Assembly: GCF_031769215.1 (NCBI RefSeq)
Contig: NW_026782260.1
Coordinates: 2,542,001 to 2,606,000, forward strand
Origin: Ylistrum balloti
Taxonomy: Eukaryota
Length of the DNA: 64,000 bases
Reading direction: 5' to 3'
Program-made: the position numbers
Shown here: piece by piece, positions 48,533 to 51,500 of the stretch
Layout: the number at the start of each line of letters is the position of its first letter
Numbering within the stretch: the first letter of the stretch is position 1

Positions 48533-51500
48533 AGACCTTGGCTTCTCCGATGAATTATTTTTCCTGATTTAGTAATAAAGTACAAACTTATTATATATAA
48601 GAATTTTTGAGAAAACACAAGAAGCTAATATATTTTTCGTTTGTATGTACACAACATTTTTAGGAACGCAGGTATCCAAATAATATACGTGACATATGTA
48701 TCCAGGAAAACTCGTATGGTACACGTGTCTTGGTAGAACGAACATGACACGTGGTATGCTAATAGAACACACCTGACAAACATATCTAGTTAAACGTACA
48801 TAACACATGTGTCCATGTATAACGTAGTGACACATGTTTCCGGGTAGAACGTACGTGACACACTATCCTGGTAAAAAGTACATGACACATGTATCCTGGA
48901 GAAAAGTACGTGACACGTATCCTGGTAGAACGTACATGACACACGTATCCTGGTAGAACGTACATGACACACGTATCCTGGTTAAAAGCACGTGACACAC
49001 GTATCCTGGTAAAAAGTACGCGACACACGTATCCTGGTACAACGTACATGACACACGTATCCTGGTACAACGTACATGACACACGTTTCCTGGTAGAACG
49101 TACGTGACACACGTATCCTGGTAGAACGTACATGAAACACGTACATTGGTAGAACGTACGTGACACACGTATCCTGGTACAACGTACATGACACACGTAT
49201 CCTGGTTAAAAGCACGTGACACACGTATCCTGGTAAAAAGTACGCGACACACGTATCCTGGTACAACGTACATGACACACGTATCCTGGTACAACGTACA
49301 TGACACACGTTTCCTGGTAGAACGTACGTGACACACGTATCCTGGTAGAACGTACATGAAACACGTACATTGGTAGAGAGTGCACACAACACAATTACTA
49401 TATAGTTCACCACAAGTTAGAGGCTATTTCATCACACAACACAATTTCTACTTAGTTCACAGGTATTGCGAGCTGGACAATCTTTACAAATTGCCAATGG
49501 AGATCAACACTTTGAACCTTTAATTCCGTCGTCATGACGACACTGCATTTCATATAGGGACTATGTAGAATACCATTTATCAAAAACCCTTGTCTTGAAT
49601 GAATATTTAATCGTTTATTCGTATCACTATCATATTCACCACCAGTCAGTTAAATTTACGTTACAATTTACATGAAATGGAGAGATAATCTAAGGGAAGT
49701 AACTCTGATAGATCCCAATCGTATATAAAACGAGATATCAGCACAGGGTTTATGAACGATATGTATATTTAAGTCCCTAGTTTTACCAAATCGAGACATT
49801 ATATTATAAAAAGGACACTTAAATGCTTATCTTTACTTCCTTACTAGCTGACTTATCACGTGTTTTAACCTCAAATAAATGATTCATTATCGATGTCAAG
49901 TGAAACAGCCGTTCTGACGGAGAATCGTCGCTGATTCTACGTCTACATAGTGGTCACGTCATGGGTGGCTGTACCGTAAATCAGCTGTTTCTGGCTATTT
50001 TATATAGATCGCTACAGACGCCATAATTTATTTCAACGCCACCGCTAGGATTCGAACTCGGGTCCTCTTGCAAGTCTGACGCTCGATCGATCGAGCTAAA
50101 GAGAGATTCTCTGTGGCTGAGCGGTGTAGTGTGGCTAGTATTTAGCAGGGTTACATACTCCCCCTCCAAAAAATAAATCGTCCTCAAGTGTCCAGCGATA
50201 ATTGTGAAAGTAACACTAAGTAATTTTTTCCAAGTCCCTACATGGGCGTCAAAGTGACAATTAATTATTTCAGTGCCTCCGTTAGAATTCGAACCCGGGA
50301 CCCCAGGCTTACAAATCTGAAGTTCAACCGATCAAATTAAAGAAAAGTTCTCTGGACGCGAATACTGTATTGCGGCTAGTATTTACAAGGGTTATAATAC
50401 ACATTATCATTTCTTCTTCGACGACGATAAGCAGGTTCCATTTTAACGGTTTTCTGGGTCCTTTATTTGAAAAATTATAAGATTGGAAACATCTATATAT
50501 GCCATGAGTAATTTTATGTGACAACATCTGATGCAACGAGACAAGATAGCTCAGCCGTTTCTATACTGTGTAGTAGGTAGGTATACGACAACGGGGTCCA
50601 GAGCAAACCCTGTGATCTTGGATAGCAGAAGCCAGGGCAAGTTCTGGTCAAAACAACAGTGAGACTGTTCTGTAATATTGTAGGGATTCCAAAAAGATCT
50701 TACCGCGCAAGGGATCTGTTTTCCACAGGTTAGCTATTTTTAACAGACGTGGAAAACCCATTTTGACCTCCCAGAGTTATTGTCCTTGTTTTACTTCGTC
50801 AGATGGTCTGACAGCCGACGAGGGCCGAGAAAAACTGGGCTCTTTTATATGACGGTGGTTTCGCTCTTCCAGGGAGGTTTCTGTATTATACTGTATATTT
50901 CACTGCAATAGATGATTTTTTAAAAAATATTTCTTTGAAATTAATAAAACAGAAAACAACACAAGATTACGCCATATATAAAAATATCAAATATGAAATA
51001 CATACATCAATAAAATATTTCATATAGCAAATCAGATATTCTTACAAAACAACCAATAAAATGACAGTGTAGTGACAACTTGTAATCAATTGACATTACA
51101 AACCTAAAGAAAAGGCTTTTATACTTTATATACTATCGAATTTGTTGACATACAATACATATAATAATGTTATATTTCTTAAAATATACGATTTTACCAT
51201 GATTTGCTTCTTACGGGGAGTATAATACAAAGGGATATTGATATGTTCCCGGTTACTTGATACACATTACATATAATAATGCAGCTTTGACTGACATAAG
51301 ATATATGACATTAATTGGTTGATATACAGCACAGGTACAAAAACACAGGATATATATAGTAAAAAATGTGATGCTGCGTTTCTATACTGCGCATGCGTTG
51401 TTGATCCTTCGAGTCTGAAGGCGCTTCCGGTTTACATTCGTCAGTCTATTGTCGATGTTTCGGTATCCTTTCGCAAGTATGGTGGCTGATTACTGACATT

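What the first reader, a model, noticed from the sequence alone, without database searches (positions are those of the whole stretch)
50016..50396. Miniature LTR element whose LTRs each carry a tRNA-derived Pol III cassette
The structure is LTR (~140 bp), PBS, ~98-bp internal region, PPT, LTR (seen in sequence). The PBS-like stretch matches the complement of the vertebrate tRNA-Lys(UUU) 3' end at 16 of 21 positions, using that sequence from memory. Each LTR holds a tRNA-like segment with B-box and, in one copy, A-box motifs, and a Lys-like body. Plant Cassandra TRIMs carry 5S-derived Pol III promoters in their LTRs, and TRIMs are reported in bivalves (established). A tRNA-promoter TRIM would be the tRNA analogue: a SINE/LTR hybrid possibly transcribed by Pol III (inference).
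Basis: partly seen in the sequence, partly recalled or inferred. Interest (0 to 1): 0.7.

Follow-up and report, generated by a model that had tools for sequence, protein, structure and literature searches.

The report
Decayed tRNA-carrying miniature LTR retrotransposon
This is most likely a worn-out copy of a tiny, non-coding LTR retrotransposon whose two end repeats each hold a tRNA-like piece, a kind of element already described in 2024 under the name Helenus, so it is ordinary rather than new.

Summary
The two direct repeats are real: 140 and 143 nt, 72.5% identical, separated by a unique 98-nt core. Neither repeat has another copy in the 64-kb window.

The anatomy only makes sense on the minus strand.
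- Both repeats carry a box-B-like motif in that orientation.
- A 10-nt G-rich purine run sits 2 nt before the downstream repeat, which starts with TG (chance about 0.005-0.01).
- The upstream repeat ends in CA. Three nt later comes a TGA-initiated stretch with the purine/pyrimidine pattern of a tRNA 3'-end complement.

Weak points:
- No tRNA is called by Rfam or by ARAGORN at default settings.
- The 3-of-4 "TSD" is within chance.
- A T6 run before the purine tract argues against a full-length Pol III transcript.

The concept is in print. Kojima 2024 (PMC10886601) describes Helenus/TRIMp3: 311-1263 bp, 4-bp TSDs in animals, 51 families in pteriomorph bivalves.

Best reading (0.6): an old, dead Helenus-type TRIM. 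Family membership is untestable here. Interest is low.

The parts
50254..50396 (-). Upstream (5') terminal repeat, copy B, 143 nt. It starts TA (TG in the other copy) and ends ...CA at 50255.
   Evidence: blastn; alignment; nhmmer; termini.
50274..50339 (-). tRNA-like segment of copy B (66 nt). GGTTC / box-B-like motif at 50285-50295 and YGG at LTR position 67; no TRGCY at the box-A place.
   Evidence: ARAGORN makes only a weak call here at an 80% threshold, c[50275,50342] with anticodon-loop letters tgta. No Rfam tRNA hit. Folding z-score 0.01.
50228..50251 (-). PBS-like stretch. It starts TGA (not TGG), 3 nt after the CA end of the upstream repeat.
   Evidence: Junction printed. Of 508 ungapped registers against both repeats, the best by purine/pyrimidine class is the complement of the tRNA-like 3' end. 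That register gives 21/24 and 20/24 same class, and 10/24 and 12/24 identical. The window background for >=21 is 3.3e-4. The stretch is not repeated after copy A.
50156..50253 (-). Internal region, 98 nt, unique in the window and non-coding.
   Evidence: nhmmer finds only itself. It has no homology to either flank. The 116-aa stop-to-stop ORF that crosses it has no Pfam match.
50168..50173 (-). T6 run on the sense strand, directly upstream of the purine tract. It looks like a Pol III terminator.
   Evidence: The terminator meaning is recalled general knowledge, not tested here.
50158..50167 (-). Polypurine-tract-like run: 10 purines, 8 of them G, 2 nt before the TG start of the downstream repeat.
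   Evidence: Purine runs >=10 outside tandem arrays number 35 on the minus strand and 43 on the plus strand in 43,090 bases. G-rich ones number 4 and 5.
50016..50155 (-). Downstream (3') terminal repeat, copy A, 140 nt. It starts TG; its end is not CA at the aligned position.
50037..50098 (-). tRNA-like segment of copy A (62 nt). TRGCY at 50098 and a one-mismatch box B at 50048-50058; 4 nt shorter than in copy B.
   Evidence: No Rfam hit. Folding z-score 0.64.
50012..50015 (.). Left flanking 4-mer, candidate target-site duplication partner of 50397-50400 (3 of 4 match).
   Evidence: Two of the 7 boundary offsets tried give 3 of 4, so this is not beyond chance.
50397..50400 (.). Right flanking 4-mer, candidate target-site duplication partner.

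Best explanation
An old, inactive copy of a non-autonomous miniature LTR retrotransposon (TRIM) of the Helenus / TRIMp3 kind, lying on the minus strand.

**Layout:** 5' LTR 50396->50254, PBS-like stretch, 98-nt non-coding core ending in a T-run plus polypurine tract, then 3' LTR 50155->50016.

**What the sequence shows**
- Each LTR has about 57 nt of LTR-specific sequence, then a decayed tRNA-like segment with box-A and box-B remnants at about tRNA spacing, then about 20 nt more.

**Inferred life cycle of the family**
- An RNA running from LTR to LTR is copied by the reverse transcriptase of an autonomous Gypsy-type element acting in trans.
- A host tRNA primes at the PBS, and the polypurine tract primes the second strand.
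- Integration leaves a 4-bp duplication.
- The tRNA-like piece would act as an internal Pol III promoter, as proposed for Helenus by analogy with Cassandra.

**State of this copy (inferred)**
- The LTRs have diverged by 27.5% (K2P 0.36).
- The boxes are each half-lost.
- The PBS-like stretch starts TGA.
- A T6 run would stop Pol III before the 3' LTR.
- I therefore take the copy to be dead and transcriptionally irrelevant.
For: - **Real repeats.** They flank a unique 98-nt core. The core has no homology to either flank, with 459/500 and 120/500 shuffles scoring as well.
- **One consistent orientation.** Box-B-like motifs in both repeats are on the minus strand. A 10-nt G-rich purine run ends 2 nt before the repeat that would be the 3' LTR in that orientation, and that repeat starts TG. 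My estimate from the run counts is about 0.005 for one strand, about 0.01 if either orientation is allowed, and about 6e-4 for G-rich runs.
- **Upstream end.** The 5' repeat ends CA at 50255. Three nt on comes a TGA-initiated stretch whose best register against the repeats is the complement of the tRNA-like 3' end, which is the register a PBS should have. That stretch follows only the 5' repeat.
- **Box spacing.** The TRGCY position to the GGTTC position is 44 nt in copy B and 40 nt in copy A. This is close to tRNA geometry, which I recall rather than tested.
- **Sequence upstream of the tRNA-like part.** About 57 nt precede it, including the best conserved block of the repeat (17/20). That fits an LTR and does not fit a SINE head.
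- **Fit to the published class.** The size of 381 bp lies within the published Helenus range of 311-1263 bp. Animal Helenus make 4-bp TSDs. Molluscan Helenus LTRs were aligned by the author with tRNA-Lys-TTT, and the PBSs use Lys among others. [quoted passage not shown]
Against: - The LTRs are only 72.5% identical, far below what is usual for a recognisable intact pair.
- There is no second copy, solo LTR or internal region anywhere else in the 64 kb.
- Rfam finds no tRNA at E<=10. ARAGORN finds none at default, and its 80%-threshold call is background at 21 per window. There is no cloverleaf and no excess stability.
- One-mismatch box-B motifs occur 5 times in the window against 4.6 expected.
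- Box A is incomplete in both copies.
- The PBS-like stretch starts TGA rather than TGG. I found the register test after looking, and with 508 registers a class score >=20 is expected about 0.5 times by chance.
- The TSD is 3 of 4 with an ambiguous boundary.
- TG and CA are each present in one copy only.
- The host organism is unknown.
- No published Helenus sequence could be compared, because the supplements are closed and Repbase is not on hand.
- No reverse transcriptase, integrase or gag is found in any of the 61 ORFs of >=70 aa outside the arrays.
Confidence: 0.6

Rival explanations
1. A partial local tandem duplication: about 1.6 units of a 241-nt period, each unit containing one tRNA-like repeat of some other origin. 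The purine run and the PBS-like stretch would be chance neighbours.
For: The start-to-start spacing is 241 nt. The window is unusually rich in tandem arrays, with 89 TRF rows and about a third of its bases in arrays. An array of the form copy-spacer-copy needs no second spacer, so the negative spacer test does not exclude it. Low identity of 72.5% is unremarkable for an old duplication.
Against: The repeat boundaries fall exactly at a TG start preceded by a purine tract, and at a CA end followed by a PBS-like stretch. All of these are in the orientation set independently by the box-B motifs. The purine run alone has a chance of about 0.005-0.01. TRF reports no array here.
Confidence: 0.15
2. 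Two independent insertions of one tRNA-derived SINE family about 100 nt apart in the same orientation, with no LTR-type relationship.
For: The tRNA-like motifs are on one strand in both copies. The low identity of 72.5% fits two separately decayed copies better than one element's LTRs. The TSD across the pair is not significant.
Against: About 57 nt lie upstream of the tRNA-like part, including the best conserved block (17/20). A SINE transcribed from internal boxes should not carry that. Only about 20 nt follow the tRNA-like part, with no body and no simple-repeat or A tail. The family has no other copy in 64 kb, so two hits within 100 nt in the same orientation would be an unlikely coincidence. 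The purine tract and PBS-like stretch would be further coincidences.
Confidence: 0.12
3. A piece of a larger or rearranged repeat. It could be the remnant of a tandem TRIM array, or a recombinant between two diverged family members, rather than one simple insertion.
For: Tandem arrays are reported for Helenus LTR-11_DR and for Cassandra (PMC10886601; PMC7215508, search listing only). A recombinant origin would explain LTRs that differ by 27.5% while the purine tract is still intact.
Against: The PBS-like stretch is not repeated after the downstream repeat: 26% of 18,001 background windows score as well. The flanks show no further homology to the core.
Confidence: 0.08

Closest known systems
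Helenus (TRIMp3), Kojima 2024, Biology 13:119, PMC10886601
   Same: It is a miniature non-coding LTR element. A tRNA-like sequence with box A/B remnants lies inside each LTR. A PBS-like stretch follows the 5' LTR and a purine tract precedes the 3' LTR. The total of 381 bp is within the published 311-1263 bp. The candidate duplication is 4 nt, as in animal Helenus. The tRNA-like part cannot encode a working tRNA, as the paper says of most families.
   Different: No sequence comparison with any Helenus family was possible. The LTRs are 27.5% diverged. The boxes are half-lost. The PBS-like stretch starts TGA. The host is unknown, whereas published mollusc hosts are pteriomorph bivalves only. A T6 run lies before the purine tract.
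Cassandra (plant TRIM with 5S rRNA-derived LTR sequence)
   Same: The architecture is the same in principle: a small-RNA-gene-derived Pol III promoter inside each LTR of a TRIM. The description comes from the introduction of PMC10886601.
   Different: There is no 5S rRNA similarity here; Rfam finds none at E<=10. Cassandra is 565-860 bp and is a plant element. I did not read the original Cassandra paper.
biv-TRIM (Satovic et al. 2019, PMC6934838)
   Same: It is a TRIM from bivalves with a 77-80-bp internal domain ending in a short purine tract (passages).
   Different: biv-TRIM repeats are 202-218 bp and lack a canonical PBS. Its conserved 14-nt internal motif is absent from the finding: the 2 window matches at 3 mismatches lie elsewhere, against 5.6 expected by chance. 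Its two repeat primers have 0 matches at up to 3 mismatches.
tRNA-derived SINEs (SINE2)
   Same: It has a tRNA-related segment with internal promoter boxes and is a short non-coding repeat. Kojima proposes that Helenus arose by SINE2 insertion into a TRIM LTR.
   Different: The tRNA-like part is not at the 5' end of the repeat unit. There is no body or tail. The two units bracket a core with a purine tract and a PBS-like stretch.

Membership tests
Helenus / TRIMp3 | Two direct terminal repeats around a short non-coding internal region; whole element short (published range 311-1263 bp) | tested here: met
   Repeats of 140 and 143 nt, a 98-nt core, 381 bp in all. No Pfam match for the ORF that crosses it. 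Caveat: the repeats are only 72.5% identical.
Helenus / TRIMp3 | tRNA-derived sequence in each LTR, with TRGCY and YGG (box A) and GGTTC (box B), as stated in PMC10886601 section 3.5 | tested here: inconclusive
   At the box positions, copy A has TRGCY but no YGG and no GGTTC (it reads AGTTC). Copy B has YGG and GGTTC but no TRGCY. The spacing is tRNA-like. Rfam tRNA and ARAGORN at default are negative. The paper used Censor and tRNAscan-SE on family sequences, and neither tool is available here.
Helenus / TRIMp3 | PBS complementary to a host tRNA just downstream of the 5' LTR | tested here: inconclusive
A stretch starting TGA lies 3 nt after the LTR end. It has the purine/pyrimidine pattern of the complement of the LTR's own tRNA-like 3' end: 21/24 and 20/24 same class, 10/24 and 12/24 identical.
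Helenus / TRIMp3 | Polypurine tract at the 3' end of the internal region | tested here: met
   A 10-nt purine run (8 G) lies 2 nt before the 3' LTR. The chance is about 0.005-0.01 from the window's run counts.
Helenus / TRIMp3 | 4-bp target-site duplication (animal families) | tested here: inconclusive
Helenus / TRIMp3 | Sequence similarity to a described Helenus family (Repbase or the paper's supplementary sequences) | not testable with these tools
Repbase and Dfam are not on hand. The figure alignments are not held as text.
Helenus / TRIMp3 | Dispersed family: further full copies and solo LTRs in the genome | not testable with these tools
   There is no other copy in the 64-kb window. No eukaryotic genome collection is available. 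A scan of the prokaryote genome-contig collection with the LTR-terminus pattern gave 0.
LTR retrotransposons in general | LTRs begin TG and end CA | tested here: inconclusive
   TG is at the start of copy A only (copy B reads TA). CA is at the aligned end of copy B only.
Cassandra | 5S rRNA-derived sequence in the LTRs | tested here: not met
   No 5S rRNA match at E<=10 in Rfam searches of the element.
biv-TRIM | 202-218-bp terminal repeats; conserved 14-nt internal motif; repeat-end primer sites | tested here: not met
   The repeats here are 140 and 143 nt. The motif is not in the element. The primers have 0 matches at up to 3 mismatches.
tRNA-derived SINE (SINE2) | tRNA-related head at the 5' end of the unit, followed by a body and a tail | tested here: not met
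   57 nt of conserved sequence precede the tRNA-like part and only about 20 nt follow it. There is no tail.
Functional tRNA gene | Cloverleaf recognised by tRNA models | tested here: not met
   ARAGORN at default finds 0 in the window. Rfam has no tRNA hit. Folding z-scores are 0.64 and 0.01.

The most novel reading that the evidence does not exclude
The copy may belong to an undescribed, very old Helenus lineage, possibly in a host outside the published range.

Its T6 run, placed directly before the polypurine tract, may be a family feature rather than decay. In that case the full-length template RNA could not be a Pol III product, and the tRNA-like piece in such LTRs would do something other than drive the genomic transcript.
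Probability: 0.12. Interest if true: 0.4.

Novelty: already known. Interest (0 to 1): 0.18.

Why it matters
It matters little as a discovery. TRIMs with tRNA-derived LTR sequences are published, including many bivalve families.

Its use is practical.
- Decayed copies like this one can be mistaken for tRNA pseudogenes or SINE pairs in annotation.
- The T-run in front of the polypurine tract is a concrete point that can be checked in younger copies. It bears on whether Pol III can really make the full-length RNA of such elements, which the Helenus paper itself leaves without experimental support.

Tried and rejected
- **Plain tandem duplication with a duplicated spacer.** The spacer is not homologous to either flank.
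- **Homology running into the left flanks.** This would have dissolved the PBS and TSD reading. It is not significant: 165/500 shuffles score as well, and 26% of 18,001 background windows do.
- **tRNA gene or pseudogene recognisable by models.** Negative. Relaxed ARAGORN thresholds only give background.
- **An acceptor-stem pairing with a compensatory change between the copies.** I saw it by eye, but it is not in the same alignment columns, so I dropped it.
- **5S or other small-RNA origin.** No Rfam hit.
- **biv-TRIM.** Its motifs are absent.
- **Coding potential.** A 116-aa stop-to-stop ORF crosses the element and has no Pfam match.
- **An autonomous partner in the window.** None of the 61 ORFs of >=70 aa outside arrays, plus 6 shorter pieces, matches reverse transcriptase, integrase, protease, RNase H or gag.
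- **Host identification.** The largest non-repeat ORF (276 aa) gave no homologue.
- **Copies elsewhere.** The only open collection is prokaryotic and gave 0.
- **A typed tRNA 3' end in the literature.** A preprint on 3'-tRNA fragments (PMC12853362, passages only) prints none.
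Full report

The region 50016-50396 holds two direct repeats, copy A (50016-50155, 140 nt) and copy B (50254-50396, 143 nt), separated by 98 nt.
- blastn aligns them at 71.5% identity over 130 nt, E 8e-14. Every other hit of the 410-nt query in the window is 29 nt or shorter with E >= 0.02.
- A local alignment scores 57, against a mean of 8.6 and a maximum of 16 in 500 shuffles; 0 of 500 reach it.
- A global alignment of the two repeats has 138 aligned columns: 100 identical (72.5%), 26 transitions, 12 transversions and 7 gap columns. 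The K2P distance is 0.36.
- Single-sequence nhmmer with each copy finds only the other (E 1.5e-15 and 3.8e-16). The 98-nt core finds only itself.
- The core has no homology to the sequence before copy A or after copy B; 120/500 and 459/500 shuffles score as well.
- A possible extension of the homology into the left flanks is not significant. 165/500 shuffles score as well, and 26% of 18,001 background windows do.

**2. Strand**

The tRNA-like motifs lie on the minus strand. A box-B-like 11-mer with one mismatch sits at 50048-50058 in copy A and at 50285-50295 in copy B. The consensus I used for that search is recalled.

Read on the minus strand, the layout is:
- Copy B is the upstream repeat and copy A the downstream one.
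- Directly before copy A lies a T6 run (50173->50168), then a run of 10 purines, 8 of them G (reverse complement of 50158-50167), then 2 nt, then the repeat, which starts TG.
- Copy B ends ...CA at 50255. Three nt further a stretch begins with TGA.

Outside the tandem arrays the window has 35 purine runs of >=10 on the minus strand and 43 on the plus strand, in 43,090 bases. The G-rich ones number 4 and 5. My estimate from those counts is that such a run ending within 6 nt of a given boundary has a chance of about 0.005. It is about 0.01 if either orientation is allowed, and about 6e-4 for a G-rich run. The orientation chosen by the purine tract is the one fixed independently by the box-B motifs.

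**3. The tRNA-like part**

- Copy A has TRGCY at LTR position 58, but no YGG, and reads AGTTC at the box-B place.
- Copy B has YGG at position 67 and GGTTC at position 102, but no TRGCY at position 58.
- The distance from the TRGCY place to the GGTTC place is 44 nt in copy B and 40 nt in copy A, which carries a 4-nt deletion. This is near tRNA geometry, as I recall it.

Model-based tests are negative.
- ARAGORN at default settings finds no tRNA in the whole window.
- At relaxed thresholds it finds 0 (95%), 0 (90%), 3 (85%) and 21 (80%). The call in copy B, c[50275,50342] with anticodon-loop letters tgta read as Thr or Tyr, is one of those 21, so it is background.
- Rfam finds no tRNA, 5S, 7SL or other small RNA at E <= 10 in four searches of decreasing span.
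- The tRNA-like segments and the whole repeats fold no better than shuffles, with z-scores of 0.64, 0.01, -0.30 and 1.15.
- One-mismatch box-B motifs occur 5 times in the window against 4.6 expected, and two of the five are these copies. Box A at two mismatches is uninformative, at 228 found against 204 expected.

The tRNA derivation therefore rests on motifs, spacing and shared orientation, not on any model. The 'Lys-like body' is not supported by the anticodon-place triplets. These read TGC in copy A and TGT in copy B, seen directly in the sequence and in the weak ARAGORN calls. The Helenus paper reports the same kind of isotype disagreement. It also reports tRNA-Thr predictions for seven bivalve families, while aligning molluscan LTRs with a tRNA-Lys-TTT.

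**4. PBS and TSD**

As an internal test I compared the 24 nt from the TGA onward with every ungapped register of both repeats on both strands, 508 registers in all.
- The best register by purine/pyrimidine class in both copies is the complement of the tRNA-like 3' end, with the TGA opposite the three bases that follow it.
- Copy B gives 21/24 same class and 10/24 identical. Copy A gives 20/24 same class and 12/24 identical.
- Window-wide, 3.3e-4 of positions reach 21 and 9.6e-4 reach 20.
- That is the register a PBS should have. But I found it after looking, and over 508 registers about 0.5 chance hits at >=20 are expected. It is suggestive, not proof.

One more of the 7 neighbouring boundary offsets tried also gives 3 of 4. 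With the end of copy A uncertain by a few bases, this is within chance.

**5. What it is**

The facts are these:
- two repeats bracket a unique core;
- a purine tract and a TG start lie at one inner boundary;
- a CA end and a PBS-like stretch lie at the other;
- a tRNA-like piece sits in sense orientation inside each repeat;
- about 57 nt of repeat sequence lie upstream of that piece, including the best conserved block (17 of the first 20 columns).

The best fit is a non-autonomous miniature LTR retrotransposon.

This class is published. Kojima 2024 (PMC10886601) describes Helenus. I read the abstract and outline, Results, figure legends and tables, Discussion, Methods and further passages. 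I did not see the supplements. The paper reports that:
- animal families make 4-bp TSDs;
- 51 families occur in five orders of pteriomorph bivalves;
- bivalve PBSs match tRNA-Lys, His, Ile, Pro, Glu or Ser;
- mobilisation is probably by Gypsy elements;
- Helenus, Ajax and Cassandra are together termed TRIMp3.

It is not biv-TRIM (Satovic et al. 2019, PMC6934838; search listing and passages).
- biv-TRIM repeats are 202-218 bp.
- Its conserved internal motif is absent from the finding.
- Its two primers have no match in the window at up to 3 mismatches.

**6. How it probably works, and what is inferred**

Shown here: the layout, the motifs and the decay.

Inferred from the family description and from general LTR retrotransposon biology:
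- an RNA running from LTR to LTR is reverse-transcribed in trans;
- a host tRNA primes at the PBS and the PPT primes the second strand;
- integration gives a 4-bp duplication.

The Pol III promoter role of the tRNA-like piece is a proposal even in the source paper, which says it lacks experimental validation. In this copy the T6 run on the sense strand, between the PBS-like stretch and the purine tract, would be expected to stop Pol III before the 3' LTR. That expectation is recalled general knowledge, not a test. A T-rich stretch before a PPT is also something I recall as common in retroelements, so the run may be part of the PPT region rather than decay.

With LTRs 27.5% apart, half-lost boxes and a TGA-initiated PBS-like stretch, I take this copy to be old and dead. 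Without a substitution rate for the unknown host I give no age.

**7. Rivals**

- A partial tandem duplication (copy-spacer-copy) is not excluded by the spacer test, and the window is full of arrays. It leaves the boundary features as coincidences.
- Two independent SINE insertions fit the low identity. They do not fit the 57 nt upstream of the tRNA-like part, the missing body and tail, or the absence of any other copy in 64 kb.
- A remnant of a tandem TRIM array, or a recombinant of two family members, would explain the LTR divergence. There is no second PBS-like stretch after copy A.

**8. Surroundings**

I scanned all 61 stop-to-stop ORFs of >=70 aa outside tandem arrays (listed), plus 6 shorter pieces, against Pfam.
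- None matches reverse transcriptase, integrase, protease, RNase H or gag, so no autonomous partner lies in the window.
- The only transposon proteins are mariner-type transposase remnants within 51983-52878 on the plus strand.
- The only retroelement-like stretch I found in the window is the finding itself. I describe it as it stands and built no consensus of its repeats.
- The largest non-repeat ORF (276 aa) has no homologue in the protein collection at near lengths, and I did not identify the host.
- Nothing in the window was taken for human.

**9. What stayed unchecked**

- No eukaryotic genome collection was available.
- The one scan of the prokaryote genome-contig collection, with the conserved LTR-terminus pattern, gave 0.
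- The supplementary files of PMC10886601 are closed. They hold the family sequences, the host list and the PBS alignments, and they bear directly on membership and on the PBS.

**10. Verdict**

The structural interpretation is moderately supported (0.6). The novelty claim is not, because the kind is already known. Interest is low.

Noticed in passing
window 51983-52878 (+): Remnants of a mariner-type transposase, about 1.6 kb from the finding. Pfam Transposase_1 matches at E 2.7e-5 (24.4 bits, curated cut-off 24) and 0.01, and DDE_3 at E 5.2e-4. The matching pieces lie in three reading frames. That means at least two frameshifts besides stop codons; I did not count them exactly. No terminal inverted repeats were established.
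   Followed up: partly
whole window: The window is very rich in minisatellite arrays. TRF gives 89 rows with periods mostly 20-80 nt. The arrays I listed cover 20,910 of 64,000 bases. Most long ORFs in the window are artefacts of these arrays.
   Followed up: partly
window 20562-21241 and 27144-27809: Two separate arrays of the same 48-nt unit lie 6.6 kb apart and are 86-90% identical to each other. Little or no shared flank was found beyond the arrays.
   Followed up: partly
window 33646-34739: This 31-nt tandem array (35 copies) has units that mostly carry a box-A-like 11-mer, one or two mismatches from the recalled tRNA box-A consensus. It could be a tRNA-head-derived satellite or chance.
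   Followed up: no
window 50378 and 50137 (minus strand, LTR position 19): A second TRGCY match lies in both repeats, inside their best conserved block and about 80 nt upstream of the box-B-like motif. Its meaning is unknown.
   Followed up: no
window 41737-45077 (+): A cluster of open frames of up to 276 aa. One Pfam match falls below the curated cut-off (Vts1, E 0.0014), and the 276-aa frame has no protein homologue. One frame holds a run of 13 Asp. It could be an unrecognised gene, a dead element or nothing.
   Followed up: partly
window 32785-33195: A run of 411 N is flanked on both sides by CA/CAC-rich low-complexity repeats. It was left as it is.
   Followed up: no
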